A program made the translations under genes and the position numbers. DNA of 64,000 nucleotides from Vicugna vicugna. Its lineage: Eukaryota. The DNA lies in assembly GCA_013265495.1 (NCBI GenBank), contig MU058054.1, positions 1-64,000 on the forward strand, written 5' to 3'. The stretch's first letter is position 1; the number at the start of each line of letters is the position of its first letter. Below, one piece after another: positions 1 through 26,900 of the stretch. Below the pieces are notes generated by a model that saw only the letters and a list, made by a program, of their open reading frames with translations, had not been told where the DNA came from and made no database searches.

Positions 1-293
1 AAAAAAGGCAAAAAGTGGCCTCAGGGTCTGACTCCTTACCAGTACACCTCCCTACCCTGGCCCCTGCCAAAAACAAAAAACAAAAAAACTTGATTAAGTC
101 AAAATTGAATCCGTGGTCTCCAAGAGGCAGGGGGTGGATTGTCCTGTTCTGTTCACTGGTTTACCTCCCAGTCTATGAGAACAGTCAATTGGATGCTCAG
201 GGAAGACCTCTGGGGAGCCCCAGCCCCCAAGAACTGGATGTCCTAGAACGTAACACTAGAGCCAAACTGAAAAATTCATGTGATTTATTGCAG

Positions 294-391
294 TGGACGA
301 TCTTTTCAGAGAAGCAGGTATCGAACCGAACGGCAAAGTGAAGTATGATGAATTTATCCACAAGATCACCATTCCTGTGCAGGACTACTGA
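294..391 (+). CDS. CALML4: CALML4 (calmodulin-like 4) last coding exon
   Basis: Acceptor ttattgcag|TG at 293/294. Reads (V)DDLFREAGIEPNGKVKYDEFIHKITIPVQDY* with TGA at 389-391, matching the CALML4 C-terminal EF-hand-like segment. CALML4 lies tail-to-tail with PIAS1 in human. Confidence 0.93.
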
Positions 392-3854: not shown

Positions 3855-6737
3855 GAGTACTGTACAGAAATACAAACATGTGCACACCTATTATAAATGA
3901 CCAAGGCAAGGGGGATGGTGGCAACTTGACTAAAGATTCTGAGAACTATTATTTGTCCACAGACAGCATGTCAGTGTTAGCAAGGGTGGGGGGAGTAACG
4001 GTGGGCTAAGAAAAAAAGAAATGACTATATGCCTTTTTTTTTTTTTAAACTTAGAAGATAAAGCTGCAGTGCATGACCCTACCAGTAATTACTATGAACC
4101 ATCAAAGTCTAATACCGGCCATGAGACCAACGGAGTGATGGCCACAGCTGTCACTGCTACCACTACTGCTACGTTTTAGAAAGTTAACAACTGAAAGGAA
4201 CAGACTCCTTAGAGTGGAATGAACTAAAATAAAAAGACAAACCAAACAGTTAGTTTCTCCTATGGAGACATGACCAAAGCCACTAGACAGACATGTATTT
4301 CTCCCTGTTACCTGTTCTTCCCTTAGGTTGGTAGAATGCAGGACGCTGAGGGAAATAAACCCTTTCCAAAACCGGGCTGAAGAAAGTAGAGGGACGGGTT
4401 TTCAACTGGATCATTCAAAGAGTTTGTAATTCAGCATCAGACACAAAGTTATTGATCAGAATTTTGAGACCACTAACGTCGACAAAAAAAAACCCAAAAC
4501 ACCTATTCATTTTATCTTAGGTAGTTGAATTAAGAGAAAGTTTCCTATTACAATGTGAAATAAGAGGCAACTCCCCACAATTTAAGTAATTTCTATCCCA
4601 ATCTGAATTTAGACACAAATTATAATACTATTAGATATTAGTCTAAGTTAGCATGGCAATGAGAGTTCTAAAGTGTTTACTCACCATTACACCAGATTCA
4701 TTTAAAAACTTAACTATTTTGTTTTAAGTGACAATGAACTTTTTTTTAATTGCAAATCGTTTAGTGACTGTAAATCAGCCATGTATGTGTGGAATACACA
4801 TGCGCAGGGGAAGACTATATAACTCACTTGTCACTCACACACACTTGTCTATAAATACATATATACACACACACATATACATAGCAATACCAACTTGTTT
4901 TTCAAAATTCAAGTCAACAATTTAGTGGCAGAGAGATGCTGCAAAAACGTATTATTTTTAGGTGCCACACAGTCGGGTGAACCATTAATTTTATCATACA
5001 ATTGAAGACACAGCCATCTTGAATTCTAACTGGATTAAAGCAGGTCAATTTGTTAACACTGCAAGGTTCAGAATGACAATTTTATACACAAAGGTGGTCC
5101 TTCATCAACTCTGAGAACAACTCTGAGAACATTAACATGGTTGTGATATAAAAATCCAGTCTGGAAAACTGGTAATCATTATGCCCCTTCTTTACCTTTT
5201 CCGTTAAACCTTTCAATCAGCTAAAAAATATATTCGACACCTTCAGATATTACCTGAAGAACGTATTATCTTCTCTGATGACAATTTTGGAACACAAGTA
5301 GAACCACTTTTTCCTTCCCGCCAACCCTCACTCATCTCCTGAAAAACAGTTTTCAATATATTTACATGTTCCATTATTAGTAAGAATAGATCAGACTGAT
5401 CCATGAGTTCTTTAAAAAAAAAAAGTGACTTTCCTATGTCATGCTTGTCTTTAAAAGGTGAAGAAAAAAACAAAACAAAACAAGGTAACTAGGCTAAGAA
5501 AGTAAGTACGCTCAGAACCAGAGAGTAAAAGCGACTAAGGGTCAAGCCCATTTTGAATTTCGTTTATCAGATGATCGATTTCTACGGACTGACATGTGTG
5601 GTGTGTTGTATTTTCTGAAGAGAAGTTACTTTTAGGATAACTGACTGTCTTTTTTGAGGTGATGTAGCCTTACCTCTGTCAGCTGCACAAGACACCCAAC
5701 AGGGCTTTCTAAGCTATTTTTAACTTCCTACTTTGGTATCAAGATCTTATATGAAAACTTTTTACCCTGTGGCCAAAAAAAGTAGGTGTTCACAGACTTG
5801 GTTTAAATACATAATACTGGCAATCCAAATTCAGAATAAAGAACTAGACTAAAGTGTGTTATTCACAGACCTGCGAAGCCTACCTTACCAGACGGTTTCC
5901 TCCCATCTCTGAAACACATTCTCAGGGGGTATCTAGCAAATAAGAGAGAACATGTGATGGAGAACATGCAATTGGGATAGTTGATAAAGATGCTCGTATG
6001 TGAGTTCAAGACCTTCAAAGCACTTTGAAAAAAGCAGGCAACTGATTTATCAACTGAATGCAAACTCGGGAGAAGGAACAGTAATGACAGAAAAATACAC
6101 ACAGACACACACTGAACGCACACACGCACAAGTTATGTCCTGAAAATACACAGGGAATGCAGTGGGACAGATGAGATTTATAACTTAAGGCTGGATGAAA
6201 TATGCACACACACAAACAGAATCCAAGTCTGTCATTTTTAGAAAATGGAAATTAAAACTATCCTCCCCGGCCCCCTCCCCACAACAAAGAAAAGCCCACA
6301 ATTTAAAACTTCATACATGCAATTCCTTTTCTGTTATTGCAAATAAAATAATGCCATTGAAGTAAAATAAAACCAAAACCATAGGACAAATGATGGGGGG
6401 AAAAAAAAAGTCTTCAGAATCCAGAAAAAATGAACTGAAGGTGGTTTGTGGGTACTTTTTTTTTCTTTTTTCTTTTCTTTCCTTTTTTTTTGTTTTTTAC
6501 AAGTATTTTTATCAGACAGGCAGTCTTAGATTTATATACAAAAGTAAAACTGAAAATATAGTTTTGTTCTCTGTACATTTCTTTTAATTTTTTTTTCCCT
6601 AAAAAAAGGAAAAAAAAAAAAAAACACGCTTGTGTACTTTTCCAAACAGAATAAGGTAAAACATAGCACAAAGTTCTCCTCTTTCTGCCAAGTTCATTTA
6701 ATCTGGGGTGGGGACGGGAGCAGCAGGGGCAAGAGAA

Positions 6738-7031
6738 TCAGTCCAACGAGATAATGTCCGGTATGATGCCGAAGATGGACGCCGTGTCCGCGCCGCTCCT
6801 GCCGGCCACGGCGTGGCTGTGGCTCTCCCGCAGGCTGCTGGAGGACACGAGGCTGCCGTTGCTGCCGCTGCTGCTCCCGTTGGTGGTGGGCAGCGAAGCG
6901 CTGCCGCCCGCGCTGAGCTGATCGAGGAACATCTGGGAGGAGGTATATGGGAAAAACCGCGACGAGTGTAGGAGGTCTTGATCATCTGAGACCGCGGCGG
7001 CGGCGGCGGCGAGGAGCGAGGTGTTATAATG
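6738..7031 (-). CDS. PIAS1: PIAS1 exon 14 (last; Ser/Thr-rich tail, terminal IISLD)
   Basis: Acceptor ctcccag|[30 protein letters not shown]...[12 protein letters not shown] at 6738-6740. Confidence 0.97.
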   Translation of the reverse strand, partial: HYNTSLLAAAAAAVSDDQDLLHSSRFFPYTSSQMFLDQLSAGGSASLPTTNGSSSGSNGSLVSSSSLRESHSHAVAGRSGADTASIFGIIPDIISLD

Positions 7032-10000
7032 CTGGGAGGGGAGACGAGAGACCGAAAAATACATAAGGAAATAAAGTTAGTTATACTCATAAAATAATCA
7101 GCTCTCTTCTCAGCAAGACAAAGTCTGAAATTTAATATATTCTGAGTACCTGGTGTTTCTGAAGTATTTAGTTACCGTTTTGCGAAAGCAAATGACTTAT
7201 GTAATGATCACATCATTGTTTTTTTTTAATTGGAATAGCTTCTTTAAAATAAATTTTTGTTTTGTTTTTAATTTTGGGGGGAGAAGGTAATTAGGTAATT
7301 TATCTATTTATTGTTTGTTTTCATCGGGATTGAGCCCAGGTCCTCATGTGTGCTGAGCAGGCACTCTGCCACTGAGCTATATATACACTCCCTCCTTCAC
7401 ATCTTTGATCTTAAAAGACACTTTTGTATCTGAAACTGGGGGCAAATCTGTTTTACTGTTTTTTGTTTTAACTTGTATTGCAAGCAATTCTCAAAATGCT
7501 ATTTCCAAACAGGCATATGCTCAGAAGCTACAGGATGGAGAACAGTCCACTTTCTTCCTCTTTGGGAGATCCTTGGCCAAGCGATGTATCAGTCAATATG
7601 ACTGCCCTGTTTCTTTATAAAACAGCACTGGAAACCAACAAATAGAGACTGTTTTTATTATATATTTAGGTGCAGCTGAAACAAAGGAACTATTACTTAC
7701 AATTTTAAATCCGTAACAATAAATGGGTATGACTACTATGAATTTTCTAAGGAAATTTCCTCTCTTGGCTACATACTATACTGTTAAGTATTTTAATGCA
7801 GAATTAAAATAGTTTTTTTTTTCATATAACATACCTGATTGTCTCCTGATAAGAAAGGAAAGAAATCTAATCCTGTGGGAGAAAAAATTATTTTAGTTAA
7901 AAAGAAAGAAAAGGACAAAACCCCTTCCAAATGCCGCAATACTACAAAAACAAGTACAGTATCTTAAAAGCTAATTCCAAATTCATTTAGAATTTTATTT
8001 AAACATAAAGAGTTGAGCTGAACGTTTCACGTCTGTCCCACTTCTGGATTACTGAAGTCTGAAGGCCAAGCTTTAGCAATGATTTTTGCTCCCAGGGACT
8101 CCATTTGTGGGACTTCGGCCACTGTGGCCCTGTTAAATCTAACGTTGGTCCCTTAAAGCTGACACAGCACTTTTCATCAAATGCTCTCACTGACTCCTGT
8201 AAAGCAACTTTTAAATCTATTCTAATTTATCACTCACAATCACCTAATGAGGTATGTAACTATTTTTGGCCTCATTTTGTGGATGAGAAGGTTTGAAGTT
8301 GAAAGACAGTAAGCAAGCTGTAAAACAGATTTTCTTTTTCTTTCTCACATTTGCTCAACTTCCCACTGTCTGTACCAATGGTAACTCAGGGACTCCTGGG
8401 TGACATAAGAAGGGGAAGAGATCTGGGGGGTGTCCAACTGCTGGCAGGGAGGCTATTACAGAAGGACCAGTTCTCATCCCTGGCTGCCAGGAGGTCACTG
8501 CAAGCCGATCCCTTCTACCTCACATTCTAGTCCATATTGCCCAGTGTGCAGTGCAATGAAGAGCAAGCAAACCAACATGAATAAAATGTCTTGTTGTGTT
8601 ATCTACACTGGGGGAAAAGTACAACAAGCAGATGGAGATAAAAATACAACAATAACACAAATACCCTGGGACCCATCCACTGTCTGCACTAGAACCAGAT
8701 TACAGCGTAAGGACCTGCAAATGCATAGCACTGCGGTCCTCGCCAGTGAGGTCAGCAGTGGGCTAAGTGAGAAACAGGGCTGCACTGTCTAACAGAGTGG
8801 CCACTAGCCATGCGATGTGGCTATTTAAACTGACTGAGATTAAGTAAAATGAAAACTTCAGTCCTGTAGTCACACTAGCCATGTTTTAAATGCTCGATGA
8901 CCACAGGTGGCTAGTGGCTACTGTATTAGCCAGTATAGATTACATTTCCCTCACTGCCGAAAGTTCTACTGCACAGAGCTGAAACGGTTTTCAGAGCAAT
9001 CACTAAGAATCCATTCAACTATCTCGGCTCCCAAGAATCCTTGCCAGTGACCCTGAATCTTACTGTAGGGAAGGGGCGGGGGGGAGCTTCTACTTTATGT
9101 TTTTGTATTTTATTTGCTACAATGAGCATATATGGTTTTTTGTAATTTAAAATATGTTCTAAGATTATATATGGCTAATATATAAATTACTAAATCACAA
9201 AGATATATGAGACCTAGTAATTCTTTTTGATAATGTAAACAATTGTTATGAACTCAAAATACATCATAGAAATGAGTACACTGACATTTCAAATTACTTT
9301 TAAAAAGAAGAATCAGGTTCACTGGAACAAAAATTAAAATTTTTCCAATGTCTCAATTCTACATCATCTAAAAGATAGTACTACATAGTTACCCACAATG
9401 CCTGCTGCATTGTTGTAACTGGATTCAGGGAAAAAAAGTAATTTTCACAAATATAAAAATTCAAAGCAACATACTGGAAGTCATTAAAAAGCCACCTCAG
9501 AATACTTTGAAGCCCACAAAACCTAAAGATCACTGCACTGTTTTCACCACTAGTAGTAAAACACTGGCTCTTGATGAAGGTACAAACAAGGTACTGAGTT
9601 CGAATTTATTCATGACCACCGTATATATTTCTCCCAGTTTCCTAGATCCAGCCCCCTCTTTTCCCAATCTTCCAATTCTTCTTTAGACTTACCCAGAAGA
9701 AGACTATAGAGATCAAAGGCATTTATAACGCTGTGTGACAACACAGAACTGGTGACTCACCTTGTAAGTCATAAGGCATGGGTGTCATGTGGAAAGGATG
9801 TCTGTAGTCCTGGATGAGGGATGTGTTGATATAGCTTGTGTCTACAGCAGGGAGGCTTGGTGTGCGGGACACTGGAGATGCTTGATGTGGAAGACTCAAT
9901 ATGCTAGAAGAAGGAAAGGTTTGCAAAATTTCCATGAGTCAGTTGAATTTTTAAGTTTAACAAAAGGGGTGCATCTCACATTGAGTCCTAGTTTTTATGC

Positions 10001-13000
10001 TGGGGGGAAAAAAAACAAAAGACAAGTAAAGCAATATATAATTTAGATTACCATACTTATTAGGAAATAATTTGTGTACTTATTAGCATCTTGCAGAGGC
10101 CACAGGGACAAAGAGAAGGATGCAATGGTATCCAACATTCATGAATCGCATGCTGTCTTTAGGACATCAACACTTTCAGGATGTTGGGGGAAGGCCGTGG
10201 CTGAGCCACTTGAATGGGATATGAGTGAAAAGTATCTACAGCAGACAAAATTTTGAAATCTTTTTAAAAAAGCACTAGAGGGTTTGCTAGTAAAAAGTAT
10301 AGGTAAATCCTTGCAAAGAAAACACATATAAACAAGACTAGGGGAATGCAGCAATCTGAGAGCAGGGAGGAGTTAACAGCTGGCCCCTAGACTTGTGAGA
10401 TTTATGAGAACAAAAACTAGGTACTGTTTTTTGGTATACCTAATGCTCGGCATAGTCATTAGCACACTGTTTGCATAAAAGGTCTTCTGAATGAATGAAG
10501 GCAGCAAGACAAGGGATAGAGATGCTCCAAGATGAAGAGGTGGTGGAATGGTTTTAAAGGGAGAAGGTGTAACTGGACAAAGAAGAAAGAACAAAGAGAG
10601 TGATTCTGCAACAATAGAGTGAGCTGTTCAAGCAGCTGAGTAGTTTAAACTTTTTTTGCTTTACCAAAAATTAGGGGACAGCAAAAAGGGGGAGAGAGAA
10701 AGGAAAAAGGAAGAACTGAAATGATTCTGAAAAGAAAAAGAAAGAATTCTAATAGTCCTGAGTGAAAACATGGTATCCCAACCATGCAAGAGGTTAACAG
10801 ACAAGTTACAGAAAATAAAGAGAAAAAAAGAAGGTAGGAAGAGGCTGTTGTTTGCTTTTAAAACTTCATGTAAAGTACTTGGGGTATGCAGATTCAGTTA
10901 CAGTGGTAAAGAATATTTCAAAAGATGTCAAGGTTGGATTTCCAAGAACAGAGGTCTAGTTACAACCTTCTACCATATTTTTATGAATGGGGTATGAAGC
11001 ATAACATACAGTCCCCTCCACCTCATAAAAATGCTTTGTCTAAAGGAAACTTAAGGTAAACCTCTTCACATCTATAGCAAGTATCATTTTTCATTAGCTA
11101 TCTCCTCTGACAACGCCTAAGGGATTACATAAGAGACACGAACGCAGCTGAAATGCTAGTCTTTGGAAACACCCTGGGAAGCCAAACAGCAAAGGAGACT
11201 CCTGGATGAATACTAAACGCTCAGCATCTAAAGACAGCAACATGTATTACATTTACTGATGTTTGTCTCTTTCTATTTCCTGGCTGGCTCCTTTGCTCTC
11301 AATTTTGTGGCAGTGTTCTAAGACGCATTTCCACCTTCACACTGCACAGTAACACATACAACACACTGGGTCTAGGCTTCTGTTTACTGGCTAGTCATTA
11401 CTGTAAACCGGCCACTGGTATTGAATATGGTGTTACCATTCCAAAAATGTCATAAACCTTCAGGTGACCTGAACCTGAAAATTTTTATCCGAAAATGGAG
11501 AAAGGTCTGGAATTGCAAACACTCTGTCTGGGCTCAATTAGTCACTGGGAAGCTCAGGAAGTAGTTAATGCATCTGATGTAATTTTATAAACATAATAAA
11601 CAAGCTATTTTTGGAGAAACAGCAAAGCAAATATTCAAGGAAGAAAAATTAGATTTCTAAACACTCAAAAAATTTCCTTTAAGGAAAAATGTTTACATAT
11701 ATATGACTACCATCAATATTCTAAAGAGTGGAATTAACAGATATAATTATGCATTTAATCCTTTTTTTAAAAAATTGAGTTATAGTCAGTTTACAATGTT
11801 GTGTCGATTTCTGGTGTACAGCACAATTCTTCAGCATTTAATCCTTCATTTAAGTATTTCTATACCCAGATTTATGAAATATCTTTTAATGGGGCTACTA
11901 TGGCATTTAAAGTAATAATATGTTTGTAGTTATATTAAAATATACATTAAATATAAAATATCTTAGAATCAAAATCCTACAGCTATTTGTTCTACCTATG
12001 CCAGCTTCCAGTAATGTGACTTTTGCTCTCTCCCCACTCAGATTTATAAAAGCTGCTGTAGTGATGGTGTCAGGCTTGCTGGGTAACAGCCATCAAGGCA
12101 GGCGTTCACCACAGGTGAACGTTAATAAAGGAGAATGCAAAGTGGAATTAGTGTTTAAATATTCATTCTGTTTAGAATAATGATACTGCTTTCAGTGCCT
12201 TTATTTCAGTCTGTATGGGGAGATAAGCTACTCTAGAGTGAAAATACCAACCTGTGGAGCATGTCTGGTTGCATTATAAAGATTCCTGAAATAGACAAAG
12301 CCCTCTAACGAGAGAGGAGGGACATTAATCATGGCTGTGCTCTTACTGTTGCAACTTCACCTTTTCAAATAGAAGATCTTTTTATCTCATCGAACAACAT
12401 CAAGCCTGAAAATAATTCGACTCAGAGCACAGAAATGCCTGCTCTTGGTCTGGTGTTAACTTTCTCTCTTAAACCTTGAAATCTGTAACCATGTCTTCTG
12501 TAGACTTTCCTCCTCCCACTTACGTTCTTCAGACACTCCTGTGTGCTGGAAGGTTAAAAAACATAGTTCCTATTCGGTTACATCAGGCCACACCACTCTC
12601 CTGATGTCTACCTAAAAAAGGTCATGTCTATTTCTAGATTTACCTTTAGTGTGCTACAATCGTGCTGCAATGTCTCATGAGATGGGACAGTCTGTTTAAG
12701 AGCACAGCTGGAGGTAGCTGCCTGCTTTATATACCATCCCCTACGAAATGTTCAACTCCTTCAGGTTAGGACTGTACTCACTCATTTTATTGTCGCCCAT
12801 GTTTAGCACAGGGAGTTTTACATTAAGTAGCTATCAGTGTTTCCTGACGCGAACTGAAGCATAAGCCAAGGTACATTATTATTGATATGAGACTAATGGG
12901 AAGTATGGGAAATGAGTCTGCAAAATAGAAAGCACTGTGCATTGTGACTCTGTGTAAGTACTGGGCTGCTTTCAGTGCCAGCCTGACACGTTCTGAGGCA

Positions 13001-16000
13001 CGTTTAAAGCCTTCATCTGGTCTTCTGCTGCTTCCTACTTGAAACACTCAACTTTGGGTTAATTTCACAGCATACGTTCTTCAGTTTGAGTAAATATCCT
13101 AAATCTTATAAGCAGCACTAGGATCACCTGGGAACTTAACAGAAATACAAATTTCTCGGTTCCTATTCCTGAATCAGACGTGGAGGGATAGGAGAGCAAT
13201 GTGTGCTTTAATAAGCCCTTCAGGTGACTTCTGAAGTGCACCAAAGTTTGAGAACTACTTACTAGAATCATTTTTTGGTGTGATGAATGTCATATCCAAG
13301 TGACCCCTCTAGTGCATCACCGCAACCCCTCAAGAATGTAACACAGATGAAAGTTCTCTGACTGCTAAGTTTTATAATCATGCATAATCATTTTATTTGG
13401 CAGATCTTTTAATTCTATTTGCAAAAGTAACTTCGTCAAGGAGTTTTTTGTTTTTAATTCTCAGTACTTACCCTTTATTATTTAGTGGTGATGTGGGAGA
13501 CAGGGAAGGACAGGTTCTCTTGGCAGATGGCTCTTCCTCCTCTTCATCAGATGAACTGTCTATGGTGAGGTCAATCACCTCTACTTTCTTATTTTTATTT
13601 GAGGACTGGTGGTGAGAAGTCACCTGGTGCTCTAATGTGGAGCTCAAGCATCCTGTGTGGGGACGATTAAAACACAAGGCAAAAAAGACCTATGACATCT
13701 CTCTTTGTTTCCGCAATGTGTCTATGGATTAGCTGATCAGTTACGGGTCAGAGAGTAGAAAAGCAACAGTGGTTCTGTTCCTCTAAGCTTAAAACTACTA
13801 TTTATTATTGGTTGTTACAGGATTTTTTGGAAAAACAATTCTGAATTAGGGCACACAATCAGAACATACGTCCACTTCAGAATAAAAGTCGTCTGAGGGC
13901 AAAGACTACATTGCACATGTCTACCTGTACATTACCTGATACACTGAGAAATGTTATGGTAACATTTTAAAAAGCCATAGCCTCCTTCCAGCAGAAAAAA
14001 AAAAAGCCAGGGAAAAAATGTAAATGAAAAAGGAACATTTACTAATCTGTACCAAGTCTGTTAAAAATTTAAAAGGATAAGATACCATTTCAAAAGCATG
14101 ACTTTACAAATAACTTTTTAGATTATGTCACTTTGAAATCTTATACCACAGAATTTTAAAAGCTGGCAAAAGTAAATTTAAGAAGTTTCACTACTTCTGA
14201 ACATTTAATCAATAATTTAATAAGACTTATTGAGCTCTCCATAAACTGCTGAGTGTTTTTTAAAAAATTTATGCATTTTAATATTAAAAACCAAGGCTCT
14301 ACAACCGCAGGGAGACTGCACCACCCTTTTGGAAAAGGAACACTCACCATCGACTCCATTGTAAGAGGCAGAAACTTCCTGTACTTCTTTCTTTGACCTC
14401 ATAGGTGCCCAAGAGCCATCCTCCTTAAACTGTATTTCATCACAATCTGTACAGTACTTTAGGATTTCCATAAACAAGCTATAAAAAACAATTTGCCCTT
14501 TGAATATCATATTCTAAATTAAGACATCAGAATCATTACTCTTCAAAAAACATTCAGAACTTCTATGTTTGGTACAAGTATAAATGAGAAGGAAAGTGGA
14601 AACACAGAAGGTGTATTTGTTCTCAAAAATCTACGGCTAAATAGGAGAACAGTTATTTAAATTATGGTAACTTGATGCAAGAAAATATCATGTAACAACG
14701 ACAAATGAGGTTTCCAAAGATTTTTAATAATATGGGAGGAAAACTATGTTCACAGAAAGTGAGAAGAGGCCAGAAAAAGACAATTCAACATTTTAAAAAT
14801 AAAATTCTGTGTATAAGTGGTATATAAATAGTGTTTATCTCTGAGTGGTGACATTGTGGATATTAACTTTTTCTTTATACTTTTCTATATAATCCAAATT
14901 GCCTATAATAAGCACATCTTATTTGATGAACTGAAGCACTACATAAAAAAACATGTCTTGAAAGTTTAAGTCTCCTTGATAAATACCAAGCAGATATTAA
15001 AAAACAAGATTTGCAAAAATGTGTAAAATTAATGATCAAATTCTTGGGTTATAATGTTAGATGAAACCAAAGGATAAAAAATACTAATATTGTATAAATA
15101 CAATTATGGGAAAGTAAAAATCGGAAAGTAACACAACATAAAAGCTTTTTATTTTCCTACGTTTTCCAATTTTTCTTTAGGGTGTGAGTGTGTGTGTGTG
15201 TGTCTATGTGTATGTATGACCTTTATAATGAGAAAGAAAAATCCCAATTGATCGGGGCATCTAAAGCTATATAAATATACAGAGTTGGTAAAATATTACT
15301 ATTCAATTCAGATTTATCGTCTCTGAAAAATTAAACATAAAACATTTAAGTAACATGTTTACTTGTCCCTGTATGACTGGTCTGACATCCTCCACGCTCT
15401 GGGTTACACTTGTATTGCTAAAGGTACTCCATTCCTTATGTTACATCTTAGAGTCCTGTGTTTTCTCAGATACTTTAGGTAAGTTGCCTTAAGTGTTTTG
15501 CTAGAGAGTATAGGAAACATCAACAGATCCTTCTTTTCACAACAGCAAAAAGGAGGTTAGAGAATGGGAGAAAAATTAAAGGGACATTCCAAGGTGTCCG
15601 GAAGGGCAGATAAAACACCAGTGTTTAAAACAAACAAAAAAAACCTGTTGTGATGCTGTGGGTAGAGAAGACAGACAGAGGTAAGTATTTTAGAGAAAAG
15701 AGAAAAACAAAGAGAACTGCTTTTCAGTGTACTGACTCGCTTTAGAAGCCTGTGCAGCAGGGACTAGGTATGATGGATGACGAGAAAATCTACAAAAACA
15801 GGCAACTTAACTAAAAAGCCCACATTTTGGTCAGCTTAAGTGAATCAGAACTTGGTCATTCTTTCATTCTTTCTCTAATCTGGTCTGCATGTCTAGGGAC
15901 AGAAGGAGTCACGCTAGGACAAAGTGTAAGCACACACCCTGCTTAGAACCACTGGCGCTTTAAACAGCAAATGTCAGGATGGACGGACGGACAGTAAAGC

Positions 16001-17955
16001 ACACATTTTCAAAACAAGAGGACTTAAAGATGAAAAGTAGATGGTTACTCTGAGGTGCAAGGAAAAACTTTAAATCGACATACCCATCAATAATAAGGTG
16101 TTCATATGGCGCCTTCTTATCGCAGACAGGACAAACCCAGGTTGGCTTTTTCTCATTCATCTGAATATAAAGAGTTGCATCAAAACACTGCAGATGAGAA
16201 CATGTAAGGGCCCGACATGGAATTGTCAGCCGCATTTTACCAAGCTTTAAAAGAGGGAGACAGAAGTAAATATAAGTTTTGGTAAAAATTTCCCAAAAGA
16301 CAATATAATAAGTATTCTGATTTAAAGCATATCATGTTTACCTCTCATTACTATGGAAGAACACTAAACACATTTTAGGTGAAACATTTACAGGTTAAAA
16401 AATTACAGTATTTCTTTGGATATTAAATCAGTAACTATGGAAAGTCTTCTTTACTCTCAGTCCACAGCTCACCGATCAGCTTTTAGCAGACAGGACTGTG
16501 AATCTCTTGAAATTATATGCAAAATCTTTTAAGTGTGTGCATTTTCCTGGAGAGCATGTTTTCAGCAAATTTTTAGAGTAATCCCTGATCCAAAAAAGTT
16601 AACAACCACTTTACTGGGGATTGGGAAAGGAAGAAGGAATGCCTTATTAGATACTGCAAGATACAGATAACAATGACATTGATTATCAACCTGATCTCTG
16701 AACAAAAGTAATTCACAGGTCAAAATGGAATGAGCACTCCCCACAATGTTTGGCCTAACATGCCAAAAGGCAGCTTTGAGAAGAAAGCCAGGCATGTGTG
16801 CTCTCTATTTCTTCCCTCCCTGTGCACCACCATGGGCAATTCAGCAAACACCTCTGGACTCCTAGCATCTCTAGCATGATAGGAGACTTTCTCTTCTTGC
16901 CCTGTGAATGGTGCTTTAAGCTGACATAGGTTGAATCTGTCCTACAAACACCAAAATCGGCTTCGTCTGGTCCCTGAACTGCCAGCTTTAGCTCAAAGCA
17001 GACAAGCTGTCTATAGAGACCTGCCCAGGGAGCTACCACATCTGGACCTCCTTCCTTGGAGGGCGCCTCGTATAGTGCAGCTGGATAACCACAGTGGAGG
17101 CCCCAGGGCGTACAGTGGCCGTGCTGCACAGAAGTTATCTACGTTCACTAACCACATTATTTGCTAAATATCAGGAAAACACCTCCCACATATTTGCAAG
17201 CTTAAAAAATGCAAAGGCTTGAAAAGGATATGAGTTAAATGAGGAAAAAAAGAGGAAAAGTTTCTTGCCTTAGAAGAATTTCAGGGAAATGTGCAACTTC
17301 CTAGACTACTGCGGAAATGAACTGTCATTTGGGGGCCTAAATTATTGTTCTGGCACCAATGATTTACTGTAACTCTAGGAAAGGCACTTAACCTTGCTGG
17401 GCCTCTTTTTCTATCTCTGAAGTAACACTGTTTCCTCCTTAATGCAATAGGATGTAGTGATGAAGAATAAAAAGGACATAAACCCAGAATGTGCTATCAA
17501 TTTCTGAGAAGGGAGAAAAGCCAGTTACAGTATCAGAAGTATGGACAGGAGGAGTGCACAGAAAAACTGAGAGCTCCCTTCTCTGGCCCCCCAACTCTAC
17601 CCTCCATGTGACTACACTACCCCCCACGATTAATTACAGTACAGAATTACTTGCTTCAAATCACTCTGTAAGCTAGCAGGAGACCCACTCAAACCGCAGC
17701 TCACTCAGTCTTCTATTCTGTGCTCACACAGTGTTAAACAACTTCATTACTCCCTTCCTACACTTCATTTTTTTTTTCTTTTTTGGTTTTGTTGGGGGAG
17801 GTAGTTGGGTTGGTTTGTTTGTTTGTTTAGAGGAGGTACTGGGGATTGAACCCGGGAACTTGTGTATGCTAAGCATGCACTTTACCGCTTGAGCTACACC
17901 CTACCCCCATACTTCAATTTTTATGATTTGATTTATCTAAGTACCTGATGAGAAT

Positions 17956-17986
<31 letters not shown>

Positions 17987-20900
17987 ACTAGCTCTTATAA
18001 AAGAAAAACCATCTATTTACCATTAGCCAGGACATGCTACATTAGCCTAGAAACATTTTCCAAATAACGATCTAGTTGGTGGTGCTAAATTGAACTTTTA
18101 TGTCTTAAGTCAGACCCTAACTTACCTCTGAAGTGCAAATTCCTAGAAGTCATAGAATAGAAATCCTAGGCACACATAGTAATCACAGACAAGCTCCATG
18201 TAACTACAGAACTAGCAGGCTACTCATGACAGTTTATGAAGACAATGGATAAAAAGATAAGAAATAAAGACTGTTGCAGAATCCAAGCCATAGGCCGTAC
18301 AACTGTATACTCTGAAAAGTAGTTATTCTCCAAAGACCATCCTCTCACATATTTTCAGTCCTATAATCCCCAAGCTGTCGGTTCATCTTTTTGGTGGACA
18401 GCAACTCTCAAACTCTTAATGATCAGCCACACTGACAAGTTCACCTACAGAGTTTTTAAGGAACACTGCTGCATGAGTGGCACAGGAAGGATGTGTACAG
18501 ATAAGGTATAGGAAAGGGCAAGCACAATTCAGAATGCACTGTTTATCAGCTGTCACACAAACGCCTTGCTTCAAAGAATCACAAGGTAATTGTTCTGTGA
18601 TAATCCTCATGTGCCTGATTTTTCAAAATAATCACTGAATTCTAAATACTTATCCACAAGTGGACACTGATTTCTCTAACTGGGTATCAGGAGAGAAGCT
18701 TAGCTCTGAACATCTTCATCTTGTAATTACTAATTCCCCTTTCCCTTTATAGGATGGGGTGGATATTTGCATCATTTGCAAATAAACACCGAAAACAATT
18801 CCCAAGTAAGTTTTCTAATGGGACGAATCTTACTATAACATAATCGTAACTGATAATACGGCAAAAGGGAAAATATCCGAATTAGATTTAAGTTCAAACC
18901 AGCTTATATCAAAAGGACCTTACAAACATCAATAATGTCATGTACTTTTTCCTTGTAAAGAGAAAGCAATGGTGTGATATTAAGAATTCCACAAATTTTT
19001 TTATTACTATCACCATCATCATCATAAATATTTCATGAATAAATTTCCACAGAGTGTGTTTTTTTTTCCTTCTATTAACTCTAAGTGATTTGTATTTGAG
19101 TTTACAGGTCTGGGGAGTATCTCACAAGGCAGGTTCTCAAATGTTCTTCCAGCTCTATTTTTAATAAATCAGAACTCAAAAATTCCCAGAGAGCAAAAAC
19201 ATTTTTAATTATTTCCATTGCCTTTAGCTAAATGGCACGCAAACAACAGAAACTCATTTATTTTGAGCTGTGTATATCATAACAAGGGCAATTCAAATGC
19301 ACAGTCAGACATCATATTTACATATTTCAAAGGGAACAAATCTTTTTTATTATTCTATAAATTTGATATATAGATGAGTTGTCATTACTAAGTTTTACTT
19401 TTTAGAGTAAAAACATACCTAAAATATATTGCCTTGCTGTTCCAGAATAATCGTAAAAGGACTGTCCCTTTGGTCAAATAGAAATTCATAGAAGAATTAT
19501 AATTATGGATTATATATATAGAGGTTTTTCCTATAATCTGAATTTTGAAAGCATAAGTCAATTTAAAAGGAACTCCTAAAACTATTTAAACTAAAAAGGG
19601 AGGCGCAGGGGGTTATGGAAAGAAAAATTAAAGCTTGCCCATTAAATTAACAGATGCAAGGAGCAAAACGTGATTAACATTTTCTAATAACATAAAGATC
19701 ACCTCAACTATGAAATTCAAAACTAGTTCTATAAATAAGAACATCAAGATTTATATTGTAGTGCTTATTTATATGAATAAATGCTTCATCTAAATGTTAA
19801 ATGATATAAACACCATATTTATTAGTATAACTGTAAACACTTTTAAAATGAGATTTCAGAAAAACAAGACTCCTGCCAGTGATTTAAACGGAAAATGAAG
19901 CATATGCACTTTCCTAAATTTCTCATATTCTCTGGACTGGTGTTTTATAATGGAATGAGGTGGCAAGCAGTCATGTTGAGGGGGAGGGTGGATAAATCGC
20001 CGTTTGGAGGAAAGGAAGGTATGAAAAGTATATACCTTTAAAAAACATACATGTCATTTTCCCACCCTCCACTAACCTGGTCTATAAACCATTTTTCTAA
20101 ATGTTAAAAAATACCACAGTCCTTTATACCATAGTCAGTTATAACATCTATCTGATTACTTAAGAATACACCCCTTGTCCACCCAGCCAATATTTTTTAT
20201 TGTGGTTAAAAAAAATTAACATTAAGTTTACCACCTTAACCATCTTAAAGTGTGCAATTCAGTAATGCTACATATTTTCGTGTTGTGTAACAGGCAGCTA
20301 CAACTTCATCCAGCAGCACTGAACCTCTGTACCCACTAATCTGCCCTCCCCCTAGCCCTTGGTAACCACCTTTCAACTTTGTTTCTATGATTTTGACTAC
20401 TTTAGGTATTTCAGGAGTGGAATCGTCCAGTACTTATGCTTCTGTGACTGGTTTATCTTGCTTATTGTAATGTTCTCAAGGTTCAACCATACGTAGCACA
20501 GGACAGGATTGCTTCCTTTTTTAATGTTGTATACACAATATCCTACTGTGTGTATATACACAGTTTATTTGTTCATCTCTTGATGGACATATGGGATGCT
20601 TCTACCCCTTGGCTGTTGTGAATAATGTCGTGATAAACGTGGGTGTGCAAATTATCTCTTTGAGATCTTGCTTTGAATTCTTTTGGATATTCACCCAGAG
20701 GAAGTGCTGGATGACACGGCAATTCTATTTTTAAATTTTTGTGGAAACTCCATACTGTTTTCCATAATGGCTGCAGCATTTTACATTCCCACCGACAGTA
20801 CACAAGGGTTCCAGTGTCTCTGGCATCCTTGTCAACTCTTATTATCCCCAGTTTTATTGACAAGGGCCATCCTGAAGAGTGTGAAGTTTATCTTATGTAA

Positions 20901-23900
20901 TTTTGACATGCATTTCCTTAATGATTAGTGATGATGAACATCTTTTCATGTGCTTGTCAGCCATCTGTATAACTTCTTGGGAGAAAAGTCTATTCAAGTC
21001 CTTTGCCTACTTTTAACCAGCTTGTTTTTTGTTGTTGTTGTTGGGCTGTAAAAGTTCCTTCTCAGGTATAAAATTCACAGTTATTTTCTCCCATTCCACA
21101 GGCTATCTTTTCACCCTGTTAACTGTTGCCTTTGACATGCACAAGTTTTAAGTCTGGTGTAGTCCCATGGGTCTATTTTTGCTTTCGTTGCCTATGCTTT
21201 TGGTGTCATGGCCAAGAAGTCACTGCCAAATTCAACGGAACCTTTTCCCCTATTTTTTTCTTCTAGGAATATAACAATTTAAGGTCTCATGGTTTAGATT
21301 TTTAATCCATTTTGAGTTAATTTTTGCACATACTGCAAAGTAGGGGTCCAGCTTCATTATTTTGGACGTGAATATCCAGCTTTCCCAATGCCACCTGTTT
21401 AAAGAGACCCTCTATGTAGTCTTGTTATGTCTGTGTATGGTTTGGGGATCAGTAATGCTAGCTTCACAGAATGGGTTTGGGAATATTCTTTCTTCGATTC
21501 TTTGGAAGAGTTAGAAAAGGACTGGTGTTAATTCTTCTTTAAATGTTTGGGAGGATTCTCCAGTGAAGCCGTAGGGTCCTGGGTTTTTCTTTATTGGGAG
21601 GTTTTCATTGCTGCTTCAGTCTCCTCACTACTTGTAAGTTTGTTCAGATTTCTTATTTCTTCATGATTCAGTCTTGGTAGGTTGTAAGTTTCTAGGAATT
21701 TATCCACTGCTTTTTTTTTTCTTTTAATAGACTTTATTTTTTTTAGAGCAGTTTCAGGTTTACAGTAGAACTGAGCAGAAAATAGAGCGTTCCCACAAAG
21801 CCCTCCCCACCCACACATATACACTCCCCTACCCTCAACATCCCTCATCAGTGTGGCATATTTGGTACAATCGATGAACCAACATGGACACATTATTATT
21901 ATCAACCAAAGTCCAGAGTTTACATTAGGGTTCACTTGTGACGTTGTACATTCTATGGGCTTTGACAAATGCATAATGACATGTAGCCACTATAGTATCA
22001 TACAGAATAATTTCACTGCCCTAAAAAATCCCTTGTGCTCCATCTATTCATCTCTCCCTCCTAGGAATTTATCCATTTCTTCTTTGCCAGTGTTCTGGCA
22101 CAGCAGTCTCTTATAATCCTTTTTATTTCTGTGACATCAGTTATAATGTCTCCTCTTTCATTTCTAATTTTAGCTATTTGAGTCTTCCCGCTTTTTTCCT
22201 TAGTTTAGCTAAGGGTTTGTCAATTCTGCTAATCTTTAAAAAAAAAAAAAACAACCAACCCCTGATTTCCTGATTTTTTCAGTCTGTTTTTCTATTCTCT
22301 ATTTCATTTATCTCTGCTCTAATCTTCAATTATTTCCTTCCTTCTGCTGACCTCGGGTTTAGTTTGTTTTTCTTTTTCTAGTTGCTTGAGGTATAAGGTT
22401 AGGTTGCTGATTTGAGACCTTTTTCCTTTTTTAATGTAAGCATTTACCGCTATAAACTTCCCTCTTCCTACTGCTTCTGTTGCATCCCTTAAGTTTTGGT
22501 ATATTGTGTTTTCACTTAATTTGTCTTCAGATATTTTCTAAATTCCTTTGTGATTTCTTCTTTGACCCACTGGTTGTTTAAGAATGCACTGTTTAATTTC
22601 CTCCTACTTATGGATTTTCCTTTCTATCTCCGGTTACTGATTTCTAGTTTCATCCCACTGTGGTTAAAGAAGATATTTAATATGATTTTAATCTTAAATT
22701 TGCTAGGACTTGTTTGTAGCCTACCATGTTCTGTATCTTAGAAAATGTGCTGTGTGCACTTGAGAGGAATGTGTAATCTGCTTTGCTGGGTGCAGTACTC
22801 GGCATGTGTCTGTTAGGTCCAATTGGTATATAGTGTTGTTTAAGTCCTTTGCTTCCTTATTGTCCTTCTGTCTGGCTGTTCTATCTATAACCAAAAGTGA
22901 GGTATTGAAGTCTCCTACTATTACTGTGTTACTGTCTATTACTCCCTTCAGTTCTGTCAATCATTGCATCATGTATTTAGGAAAGAATTTACACATTTTA
23001 AACCATAATATAAAAAGCCTGGAGTCAAAATATTTTCCCTAAAAAAATGACTGGCTATAGTAAGGAATAAAAAGATAGAAGGATATATACAAAATGATAC
23101 ATTTGTTGGTTTTTATTAACTTCACTGTATTTTTTCCTATGATTTATAGAAACTTAATAATGAACAGGAGTTCCATTATCAATGGTAAAACAAAATTTAA
23201 AAAAAGCTACAGAAAATACTGTATTATAAATTGATTCATCAGCTGATAACTTTTTCATACTGTGTTTGAGGTTTGATAAACTATAAAGACTAAGATACAG
23301 AACAAATAACATTTTCTGTTAAAAATTTTTGTTTCTTTAAGAATAAATAGAGAGAATAGCTCAAAGTGGTAGAGCGCATGCTCAGCATGCACAAGGTCCT
23401 GGGGTCAATTCCCAGTACTTCCTCTATAAATAAACAAATAAACCTAATTACCTCCCCCCCTGCCAAAAGAATAACTTCAGCTTCATTTTAGATTAGTAGG
23501 ATTTCCAATATTAAAAGCTTTCAATATCAGTCTTGCCTTAACAATCCCAGCAAATTAGGAAACAGCTATGTCCTCTTATTTTTCATACTTTCTCCCCAGT
23601 TTAGATATGATTCGTTTGATTAATTATAGAACAAAAGGTAATCAAAATGTCAAAGTAATTTACTCTTAGTTTTTCATATATTTTTATATGAAAGCATCAT
23701 TCAACTACCATTCCTAGTACTGATGGACCTAACATCAAACCAGTTGTGGGGGAGGGTATAGCTCAGTGGTAGATGAGCTTAGCATGTATGAAGTCCTGGG
23801 TTCAATCCCTGGCACCTCTATTAACAAACAAACAAGTAAATTAGAATGAATAAATAAATCTAATGACCTCCCTCAAGAAAAAAAAAAAAGATTAAAACCA

Positions 23901-26900
23901 AAACAACAACAAAATCCCCCCAAAAAAACAGGTAAAAAATAAACCTTAACAACACATTTTTTGGAAACTTTTTCACTCAAAGTTTAACCATTTGGTATAT
24001 TAATTTCGTAGAAATGATTGAAATTGATCTCATTTTCTGGTTTAAAAATATTTCTAGTTTATTTTTATACGCATAACCAATTCAATTACTCAGGCTAAAG
24101 AGAATAGTTTTTAATTGGTGTATTCTTATAACATAGTCATTGTTGGCAAAATGGTTAAGTTGAATGTGTGAATAAATCATGGCCAGATTTTTATTTAGAA
24201 GTATACTATTTTAAAAAATGAAATTATAATAAATACCCTGATATAATAAATATGCCTTATTTGGAGATTTTACACTTTAAGTCTAAGAGACAGTTAGTAA
24301 CTACAAGCAATATTTAAATATAACTTATTAAGAGAAGAAAAATTTTATAGACATACGTTTGTTTAGATTTCAAATCCTAAGACTAAATAACAATGTCTTT
24401 TACTTTTCATAAACTGTAACCAAAAACGGGCATGTTTCAAAGTTAACAGAATTTCTCAAACAGTGGAAATACTTAATAAAAAAAAAAGGCACACCAAGCC
24501 TTCTGGAGAGCAAGTATTAGTTAACACTTACTGGACACAGAAGAGAAACCCTCAGGCTGGTTGTAGCTATTTCACTGTCTGGATCCGCGGTCAATTTCTC
24601 TTTAACTGACATTCATCGAAGAGAAAAACAAATAGAAGAAGTTTATTACAGATATATCACTGATGCAATATAAGAAAAAGAATGGGAAACTTAAAATGAG
24701 GAACTTTTAAAAAAAGGAACTCAAAAATAATCTGCTCAATTATTTTCCAATTAATTGAATTAAAAGATAAAAACAGTGATATGGTTTACAATCTCTGCCA
24801 TAAGCAAAGGAAGGAAAACAATTGTACATCTACAGACTGACTACATTTCCTCTAAGTTCCCTATTTTTCACCCACAAAATAAAAACTGCATTGCAGTAAC
24901 AGAAAAAATTTCTATGGCAGGTTGACGTATGCAAGTGATGGCAGACCCTTGTTCTTTTGTAACTCTAAGATACACGGTAAAGATTTTCTTTCTTTTAAAT
25001 ATGACTAATATTATTTTAAAAGGAACTAATAAAAAAGAACTATAAAACTAGTATGTTTAAGTTTTTTCAAAGCTCAGATAAACAAAACATTTATTGTTAA
25101 CACGTTAATTCTAATTTCAAACTATAAGAAGAAAAAAGTTCAACTGCCTTTTTGCCATATGATTATTTGAGTTTACATTTATTTATCCATAAACTAGTTA
25201 ATTATGCTACCTTGGGCAAGTTAAGCCTCTCTGAGTTCAATTTTACTTCCAGAAAAATAACAACCCACAAATAGGTAACCTCCAAGTCTTCTCAGTTCAA
25301 ATTTCTATGGTTCTTGAGAGAGGTAATTGGTACCTCTCTTAAGTACCTGGTAAATTGATAATTTTACCTTTAAAGCTATTCGATTACTCTCGGTCAGTCT
25401 AATGTAACAATGACCTTTATACTTCTCATCTGAAAGCCTGAGGTATCTGTTACGTCTGAAAACCCTGAAACTTTAATTAAACTTCAACATAGAAATGAGG
25501 TTGGAAATGCTTAAATACTTCAATAATTTCAGAAACTGTAAGGAGGCCCACATAGTTGTGCACATAGGCAATCACAGAATTCCAGAGCTGAGGCATAACT
25601 AAGTGTGACCAGATAGTTATAGACAGACAGATAGGAGAAAATGGGGAAGGGAAAAGTACTTGGCTAAGGAAGAATGATTTCAGAGTAGATGTTTGTTGCA
25701 CTAATAACCATTTATCAGAATTAAGAATCCTGCCTTTATTAAACATGATGATCAGACAGTCAGGATTTTTTTTTGAGATGGTCCAAATTTTAGATATTCT
25801 ATCCAGTTGTCTCCATAAATTAGTGGACCTCAACTAAGATGCACATCAGAACCACCACAGAGCTTTCTAATTTATAACTGCACACTGAATCAGAATGGAG
25901 AAGAGGGACACTAATGGGTAGTTTTTAAAAAGCCCTAGATGCGATTCTGACGACAGACTAAAAAGTCTATTTATTCATAGCCTAAAAACTCCAGAATTTT
26001 AAAGTCTACATAGAGGCTGTTTATCATATCTAAAAAGGCATACAGGGTTTTAGTTTGGAAAATACAGTTATCACATCACTTATGTTAATTAATACTGTAT
26101 GTAAATTATGAAAAGTATGCCTTTGCCATTATAGACACAATCTTAGTCACTCCTTTCTTATGAAGATACATATAACGAAGAGTATCTTTTTAAAGGTAAC
26201 AAATAATTGCCATACAAAACAAGCACGAAGGTATAATTCTAATGTGATTACTAACCATTCTGCATGTCTTCATCAACCACCCTTCTAACACCCACCATAC
26301 ACACAGCAATGGGAAAAGTAACTGACTCTAGGTTTTGTCTACTTAAACTTCCATTTAAATGAAGCAATTCCATAGATCATAATATGAGCTTCATGGAAAA
26401 CAAAGTTCAGTGTTAGTATTCTGAAAAGAAACTGAAACAGGAAAGGCAACCTGAGGTAGTGGTTCAGAATATAGGATCTAGAGCCTGTCTAGGTTAGAAT
26501 TCAGACTTAGTCACTTAACATTTCTGTGCCTCAGTTTCATCATCTTGTAAATGGGTACAATAAGTGAACCTCAAAATAGCATTGTTTTAAGGAGCAAATG
26601 AAGTTAATACAAATAAAATGCTTTAAAATAACCTAACATTATACTCAAAAACTGTTAGTTACTGTGACTTAAAATGTGACTTGTATGTTCACTTTCTTTC
26701 AGAGATGAAGTTTGTGAAATTATTTTAGAATCAGCTTGTCAATTTCTATTTAAAGAGCTTTGCCTTTTACCTTTGCCATCACAGACTCCATCTTAGGCAA
26801 TACTTTTAATACATCACGATCTTGATGGATTGAATTCAATCTATAGATCAATCACAATGAGTATTCTGATCCATTAACATGATATATCTCTCCATTATTC

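What the first reader, a model, noticed from the sequence alone, without database searches (positions are those of the whole stretch)
6738..7031. PIAS1 last coding exon is a GC/CpG island inside an AT-rich gene: candidate GC-biased gene conversion hotspot
Seen: about 33 CpGs by hand count in 294 nt and mostly G/C third positions. Exons 3-13, the upstream intron and most of the 3'UTR are AT-rich and CpG-poor. From memory of human PIAS1, exons 3-13 differ by only ~2 residues. Exon 14 has a cluster of changes (GGSTSLP>GGSASLP, SNSSL>SNGSL, SSNSL>SSSSL, HTVTNRSSTD>[10 protein letters not shown]), all reachable by A>G substitutions. Inference: lineage-specific gBGC, or a newly unmethylated exonic CpG island, has changed synonymous and non-synonymous sites and could create an internal or antisense promoter.
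Basis: partly seen in the sequence, partly recalled or inferred. Interest (0 to 1): 0.7.

Follow-up and report, generated by a model that had tools for sequence, protein, structure and literature searches.

The report
GC-pushed last exon of camelid PIAS1
The last coding exon of the SUMO-ligase gene PIAS1 in this genome (likely a camelid) is a short GC- and CpG-rich island with five lineage-specific amino-acid changes, all towards G-richer codons, most likely a scar of recombination-linked biased gene conversion, which is a known process and probably not adaptation.

Summary
Observation confirmed. 6738-7031 (-) is PIAS1's last coding exon: 33 CpGs, GC 0.65, CpG O/E 1.11. GC3 is 83/97, against 163/397 in the 11 upstream exons.

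No orthologous DNA was obtained, so polarity rests on proteins. On this branch, 5 of 5 unambiguous exon-14 replacements (6 bases) are weak-to-strong. So are 2 of 2 changes in the proximal 3'UTR. Out-of-frame records of other mammals expose third positions of codons 72-97: all W/S differences run towards G/C in the window (4:0, 6:0, 7:0, 5:0, 6:0).

Against a purely lineage-specific story: those mammals are already 65-77% GC3 there; two replacements are shared with fin whale; one is primate-derived; the intron flank is AT-rich; synonymous polarity at CpGs is uncertain.

Best reading: narrow, probably long-lived GC-biased gene conversion on an already GC-rich exon tail (about 0.6). Methylation, recombination and the promoter idea are untested. 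Exon-scale gBGC is well documented, and this scan noted several similar exons in the same genome. Interest 0.27.

The parts
6738..7031 (-). PIAS1 last coding exon (97 codons + TGA); GC3 83/97, 33 CpG
6741..6920 (-). GC-saturated core, codons 38-97: 57/60 GC3; holds all seven differences from the eutherian plurality (residues 45, 59, 65, 74, 77, 80, 81 at 6899-6789)
6690..7055 (.). GC/CpG peak (about 370 bp); passes the 200-bp CpG-island thresholds, and 28 500-bp windows narrowly pass GC>=0.55 with O/E>=0.65
6679..6715 (-). Proximal 3'UTR with two window-specific A>G changes (6715, 6679), inferred from read-through peptides of 7 other mammalian records
6741..6767 (-). Unchanged C-terminal end of the protein, likely the SIM2 SUMO-interacting motif (C-terminal position from a review passage; exact residues recalled)
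7032..7311 (-). Acceptor and intron flank: GC 0.53 in the first 30 nt, then 0.21-0.33; no GC spill-over
7835..45735 (-). Eleven upstream PIAS1 coding exons used as control (all AG/GT-bounded, open frame); GC3 163/397

Best explanation
This is the ordinary last coding exon of PIAS1, and its 3' two-thirds carry a sharp GC/CpG peak that was most likely raised by GC-biased gene conversion at a narrow meiotic recombination hotspot, acting on an exon tail that was already moderately GC-rich in mammals. Shown: the peak, its core in codons 38-97, and the one-way direction of the protein-level and indirectly read changes. Inferred: heteroduplex mismatches were repaired towards G/C, which fixed silent changes, two UTR changes and five tolerated replacements in the Ser/Thr/Asn-rich tail, one of them (S59G) at a site that is Ser in 145 of 145 other stored proteins; the C-terminal motif stayed intact. 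Inferred more weakly: the hotspot was long-lived, a CpG-island (PRDM9-independent) type in which GC and CpG gain, low methylation and recombination reinforce each other, because a rough model needs a branch-averaged B of about 8-22. Untested: recombination rate, germline methylation, promoter activity.
For: GC3 83/97 vs 163/397. The skew holds outside CpG contexts: third-position C:T before a non-G base 38:8 vs 78:88 (p 2e-5), non-NCN fourfold sites S:W 21:1 vs 29:39 (p 1e-5). Both T and A are depleted at fourfold sites (1 T and 3 A of 53). Parsimony with 26 other eutherians and 4 outgroups: 5 sure W>S and 0 S>W replacements in exon 14 on the window's branch, 1 S>W in the upstream exons; differences from the plurality cluster in exon 14 (7/97 vs 1/397, p 6e-5). 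UTR: 2 of 2 window-specific changes in 31 read-through codons are A>G against all 7 records compared. Third positions decoded from out-of-frame records: other W/window S vs the reverse 4:0, 6:0, 7:0, 5:0, 6:0 in five mammal-like records and 27-29:0 in five bird-like records; codons 91 and 95 are W in all five mammal-like records. Pooled 11:0, p 5e-4 against 1:1; 10:0 events, p 0.01 against the 19/30 ratio of other branches. Required B: (assumed branch length 0.08-0.16, recalled); human hotspots exceed B=5 in 1-2% of the genome and last about a million years (PMC4510005, sections 15-16).
Against: Outgroup mammals are already 17-20/26 and 17/24 GC3 in the tail. The intron is 0.21-0.33 GC beyond 30 nt, whereas Berglund 2009 reports bias extending into flanks (PMC2631073 passages). 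8 of the 11 polarised changes create a CpG (my count), and CpG sites are prone to mis-polarisation: two members of one cluster differ at codon 84, and one bird-like record shares G at 91 and 95. All 11 are A>G on the sense strand, where gBGC should be strand-symmetric, though few T sites were readable. Amino-acid direction alone is not significant (p 0.13), and other eutherian branches also show W>S excess in this exon (19:11). The out-of-frame records are unnamed and were found by similarity to the window.
Confidence: 0.6

Rival explanations
1. Germline hypomethylation without conversion bias: the exon tail was CpG-rich ancestrally, this lineage kept the CpGs because it stopped methylating them, and other lineages lost them in parallel by deamination.
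For: No CpG depletion at all (C:T before G 20:1 vs 4:35; NCG 11/31 vs 6/109). The three best synonymous differences (84, 91, 95) are all NCA/NCT vs NCG; codon 84 varies within one cluster; one bird-like record has G at 91 and 95. Outgroups are already about 70% GC3.
Against: It cannot explain derived replacements whose polarity is secure (S59G unique among 145 records, N65S absent from the stored amniote proteins, N77G), nor the non-CpG changes (65, second base of 77, UTR 6679), nor 20 of 20 two-fold Y codons ending in C in codons 38-97.
Confidence: 0.17
2. Nothing special on this branch: an ancestrally GC-rich, weakly constrained tail plus ordinary drift, in which A>G transitions are simply the tolerated changes of Ser/Thr/Asn codons.
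For: Other eutherian branches also show 19 W>S vs 11 S>W replacements here; rodent lineages differ from the plurality by 4-6 residues vs 7 for the window; 5:0 vs 19:11 is not significant; no intron spill-over.
Against: 57/60 GC3 in the core; no S>W difference against any of ten out-of-frame records; 3 of 5-7 ancestral W3 sites changed, p 0.002-0.04 at assumed neutral rates of 0.06-0.12.
Confidence: 0.13
3. Positive selection on the PIAS1 tail, for example removing Ser/Thr phospho-acceptors upstream of the C-terminal SUMO-interacting motif.
For: Replacements cluster in exon 14 (7/97 vs 1/397); six of the seven remove a Ser, Thr or Asn; SIM2 lies at the C-terminus of PIAS1-3 (PMC8998487 passage).
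Against: Silent and UTR sites move in the same direction, which protein selection does not predict; the C-terminal motif is unchanged.
Confidence: 0.05
4. RNA-templated or paralogue-templated rewriting: ectopic conversion with a PIAS1 retrocopy, or A-to-I edited cDNA, which would confine the change to exonic sequence.
For: The peak stops within about 30 nt of the acceptor; all 11 polarised changes are sense-strand A>G; partial or degenerate PIAS1 copies exist in other mammals (P0050, P0151).
Against: T is as depleted as A at third positions, which editing does not predict; the 5' third of the exon is less affected (26/37); the long 3'UTR is AT-rich; no second copy in the window. The rest of the genome could not be searched.
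Confidence: 0.05

Closest known systems
[quoted passage not shown]
   Same: One exon of a gene with clustered synonymous and non-synonymous W>S change. Riffis reports 29,845 episodes in about 70,000 murine exons, equilibrium GC3 about 94% and 6.9-fold more non-synonymous W>S changes; the core here is 95% GC3.
   Different: Those were called on DNA alignments, mostly on short branches; here polarity is indirect and the inferred amount of change suggests a long-lived source. Berglund's bias extends into flanks; here the intron is AT-rich. PIAS1 does not occur in the Berglund main text or the one held Riffis supplement.
PRDM9-independent, hypomethylated CpG-island hotspots (Joseph et al. 2024, PMC11161765: passages, section 8, supplement search seen; dog GC-peaks and CGIs, Berglund et al. 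2014, PMC4350167: abstract and section 15 seen)
   Same: Small GC peak without CpG depletion, similar in size to dog CGIs (mean 481 bp); such hotspots are stable and active in 39 of 52 placentals, and gBGC is inferred to create new CGIs in dog.
   Different: This one lies on a 3'-terminal coding exon, not a promoter; methylation and recombination are unmeasured; no camelid term was found in the Joseph main text or its 4 held supplements; PRDM9 status in camelids was not tested.
Intragenic/orphan CpG islands acting as alternative promoters (recalled, no paper read)
   Same: Meets the compositional definition inside a gene body.
   Different: Short (about 370 bp) and coextensive with a coding exon; no transcription, chromatin or methylation evidence.
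PIAS1 (SP-RING SUMO E3 ligase)
   Same: Intact 12-exon frame in the window, 1 difference from the eutherian plurality in 397 upstream residues, C-terminal end unchanged.
   Different: Seven differences in the low-complexity tail; G59 is not seen in any of 145 other stored proteins.

Membership tests
Exon-scale gBGC episode | Excess of synonymous W>S substitutions on one branch in one exon | tested here: inconclusive
   Indirect, codons 72-97 only: 4:0, 6:0, 7:0, 5:0, 6:0 against five mammal-like out-of-frame records; the 3 best sites are all CpG-forming
Exon-scale gBGC episode | Non-synonymous W>S changes clustered in the same exon, few S>W | tested here: met
   5 W>S, 0 S>W on the branch; 7/97 vs 1/397, p 6e-5; direction alone p 0.13 vs other branches
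Exon-scale gBGC episode | Bias also at non-CpG sites and on both strands | tested here: inconclusive
   Composition met (38:8 vs 78:88; 21:1 vs 29:39; T and A both depleted), but all 11 polarised changes are sense A>G and 8 form a CpG
Exon-scale gBGC episode | Bias extends into flanking non-coding DNA | tested here: inconclusive
   UTR 2 of 2 changes W>S; intron GC 0.21-0.33 beyond 30 nt, no spill-over by composition
Exon-scale gBGC episode | Elevated recombination, or W>S alleles at higher frequency in polymorphism | not testable with these tools
   No camelid map or population data obtained
CpG island (compositional) | >=200 bp, GC>=0.5, O/E>=0.6 (thresholds recalled) | tested here: met
   301 200-bp windows pass, spanning 6613-7114
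CpG island (compositional) | >=500 bp, GC>=0.55, O/E>=0.65 (thresholds recalled) | tested here: met
   Narrowly: 28 of 1000 500-bp windows tested, max GC 0.554
PRDM9-independent CGI hotspot | Hypomethylated in the germline | not testable with these tools
   Only the lack of CpG depletion (O/E 1.11 vs 0.23 window-wide)
PRDM9-independent CGI hotspot | Stable over many millions of years | tested here: inconclusive
   Rough model needs branch-averaged B about 8-22 from GC3 0.65-0.75 (assumed branch lengths); other camelid species could not be compared
Intragenic promoter CGI | Transcription start, H3K4me3 or CAGE signal | not testable with these tools
   No RNA reads examined

The most novel reading that the evidence does not exclude
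Camelids have a dog-like recombination landscape: stable, self-reinforcing CpG-island hotspots that also settle on coding exons and have rewritten many proteins for tens of millions of years. PIAS1 exon 14 would be one of a series (unchecked scan notes list RYR2, ARID4B, LYST, EPC1 and several retrocopies in this or another camelid genome), making camelids a second mammalian lineage where PRDM9-independent gBGC dominates and confounds published camel adaptation scans.
Probability: 0.3. Interest if true: 0.62.

Novelty: new member of a known kind. Interest (0 to 1): 0.27.

Why it matters
As a single locus it is one more exon-scale gBGC candidate and a caution: five lineage-specific replacements in a very conserved SUMO ligase would look like camelid adaptation in a dN/dS scan but track silent and UTR changes. 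It matters more as a data point. If many camelid exons look like this, camelid recombination may be dominated by stable CpG-island hotspots, which my searches did not find described and which a genome-wide branch analysis could test directly.

Tried and rejected
Orthologous DNA: no whole genome held; scans of metagenome, viral and prokaryote contigs with the exon peptide confirmed 0 of 593, 0 of 90 and 0 of 600 pattern matches. A run search listed 3 Hi-C runs by species label only; no read-level data were obtained, so polymorphism, the comparison between camelid species and expression remain open. Word-indexed search with the +1 frame: 0 of 456 candidates; the exhaustive search found 5, which with 4 cluster members and P0151 gave the third-position data. 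PDB: 0 matches to the tail. Rfam: 1 tRNA-like match at 23350-23423, unrelated. Look-alike scan notes: none. Rejected: amino-acid composition as the cause; genome-wide loss of CpG decay (window O/E 0.23); A-to-I editing (T depleted too); a pan-mammalian hotspot argued from proteins (19:11 in exon 14 vs 10:9 upstream on other branches is a weak difference); mis-assembly (splice sites, frame and UTR are continuous). Literature: PIAS1 + 'biased gene conversion' gave 3 papers and PIAS1 + camel + selection 11, none on this exon by title and abstract start (listings only). PMC10691551 has no camel or PIAS1 term; camel terms in PMC12154656 and PMC12100477 are reference-list only. Subscription papers are not in the library, and bioRxiv supplements were not searched.

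Full report
1. Observation. The stretch 6738-7031 read on the minus strand is 97 codons and a stop, and it is the C-terminus of PIAS1 (85 hits). tblastn with rodent, horse and lemur PIAS1 located 11 further exons; all have AG/GT ends and join in one open frame. The exon has 33 CpGs, GC 0.646 and O/E 1.11. Only 2 of 214 300-bp bins reach 12 CpGs, both here; the best 294-bp window elsewhere has 17. GC3 is 83/97 against 163/397 upstream (p 5e-16) and GC4 49/53 against 61/177. Re-encoding the peptide with upstream codon usage never exceeded 23 CpGs or 56 GC3 codons in 20,000 draws.

2. Shape. GC3 is 26/37 in codons 1-37 and 57/60 in codons 38-97 (p 0.002). GC is 0.56 in the first 50 nt of the UTR and 0.53 in the last 30 nt of the intron, then falls to 0.21-0.34 on both sides. 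The peak is about 370 bp, centred near 6830. CpG is not depleted (C:T before G 20:1 vs 4:35 upstream), and the skew also holds away from CpG (38:8 vs 78:88, p 2e-5; non-NCN fourfold sites 21:1 vs 29:39, p 1e-5). These contrasts are with the upstream exons, not with an ancestor.

3. Species. The protein lacks a replacement shared by whale and ruminants, which fits a basal artiodactyl. The tree assumes this placement.

4. Protein polarity. Against the plurality of 24 eutherian proteins (rows that lacked the full exon, a chimera, marsupials, platypus, bird and turtle were left out) the window differs at 7 of 97 exon-14 residues, the others at 0-6; upstream it differs at 1 of 397 (p 6e-5). Parsimony with 26 other eutherians and 4 outgroups (misaligned upstream stretches masked, ambiguous and non-eutherian events not counted) puts T45A, S59G, N65S, N77G and S80G on the window's branch, all W>S, six bases; 74 falls on the artiodactyl stem, 81 is ambiguous (both shared with fin whale), and T76 arose in primates, some bats and manatee. 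Residue 59 is Ser in 145 of 145 other stored proteins that matched the pattern; Ser65 occurs in 9, none an amniote. Against my reading: other branches show 19 W>S vs 11 S>W in this exon and 10 vs 9 upstream, so 5:0 is not significant by direction alone (p 0.13).

5. Indirect DNA evidence. No orthologous DNA was obtained (no read data). Two kinds of mis-called proteins gave partial access. First, read-through peptides of 7 mammalian records cover 31 UTR codons; the window alone differs at two positions where all 7 agree, both A>G (6715, 6679). Second, +1-frame ORFs expose the true third base as their middle base. An exhaustive search found 5; with 4 cluster members and a frameshifted mole copy that gave 10 records (the start codon of each ORF was dropped as ascertained). 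Over codons 72-97 the mammal-like records have GC3 20/26, 18/26, 17/26 and 17/24, the window 24/26; the mole copy has 6/14 against 12/14. Every W/S difference has W in the other record (4, 6, 7, 5, 6) and none the reverse. Five bird-like records over codons 41-97 have 25-27/57 against 54/57, differences 27-29:0. Codons 91 and 95 are W in all five mammal-like records and 84 in four. Pooling 6+2+3 bases gives 11:0 (p 5e-4 against 1:1; 10 events against 19/30, p 0.01).

6. Mechanism. Shown: a narrow peak and one-way change in coding, silent and UTR sites. Inferred: biased repair of meiotic heteroduplex towards G/C. A simple two-state model needs a branch-averaged B of 8-22 to go from GC3 0.65-0.75 to 0.90, for assumed branch lengths of 0.16-0.08 (lengths recalled). 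In humans B exceeds 5 in 1-2% of the genome and hotspots are under about 1.3 million years old (PMC4510005, sections 15-16), so one short-lived hotspot is unlikely to suffice. A stable hypomethylated CpG-island hotspot, as in dogs (PMC4350167, abstract and section 15) and many placentals with intact PRDM9 (PMC11161765, section 8), fits better; I put that sub-model at about 0.4 of the total and gBGC of any kind at 0.6. The AT-rich intron argues against a broad hotspot. The C-terminal end, where SIM2 lies (PMC8998487, one passage), is unchanged, so no loss of function is implied. The promoter idea is untested.

7. Comparison and novelty. Exon-restricted W>S bursts are a described class (PMC2631073, passages; PMC12290510, section 6: 29,845 episodes). 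My searches found no paper on this exon (listings only) or on gBGC or PRDM9 in camelids (listings, showing reference-list hits only), and no camelid term in Joseph et al. or its 4 held supplements; subscription journals are not covered. Earlier scan notes report similar GC-rewritten exons and retrocopies in the same genome. I did not check them; they shaped the novel case and the preference for a long-lived hotspot but are not counted as evidence.

8. Verdict. Real feature, new member of a known kind, interest 0.27. The bolder reading, a dog-like recombination landscape in camelids that rewrites coding exons, has probability about 0.3 and would merit about 0.62.

Noticed in passing
window 6705-6729 (+): Canonical G-quadruplex motif just past the stop codon, one of 6 in the window; read-through peptides suggest the underlying sequence is shared with other mammals, so it is not new, but it could anchor low methylation or recombination.
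   Followed up: partly
window 6698-7171 (-): The +1 frame over exon 14 is stop-free for 157 codons; likely a by-product of GC gain. Only short fragments of this frame exist in other species.
   Followed up: partly
window 290-391 (+): Last coding exon of a CALML4-like gene (name recalled) converging on the PIAS1 3'UTR; GC3 18/33, 4 CpG, so it does not share the peak.
   Followed up: partly
window 900-2700: Mildly GC/CpG-rich zone (GC about 0.5-0.57, O/E up to 0.55) between the two converging 3' ends; holds the second-best CpG window (17 in 294 bp at 1019).
   Followed up: no
window 6993-7010: The poly-alanine run is a near-pure GCC repeat; slippage or conversion may have homogenised it, and it supplies 6 of the CpGs in the 5' third.
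   Followed up: no
window 23331-23450 and 29534-29628: tRNA-derived SINE copies (Rfam tRNA hit; second copy 83% identical); recalled as camelid vic-1 type, not tested against a consensus.
   Followed up: partly
P0148, P0146, P0171: Parallel GC-ward changes in other lineages: an unnamed rodent-like record carries G77, G80 and A81 like the window, Microtus carries G77, and a bird-like record has G at third positions 91 and 95. The exon tail may be hit repeatedly.
   Followed up: partly
P0050: A hare protein annotated as histone H1.8-like ends in most of PIAS1 exon 14: a retro-inserted fragment or a chimeric gene model.
   Followed up: no
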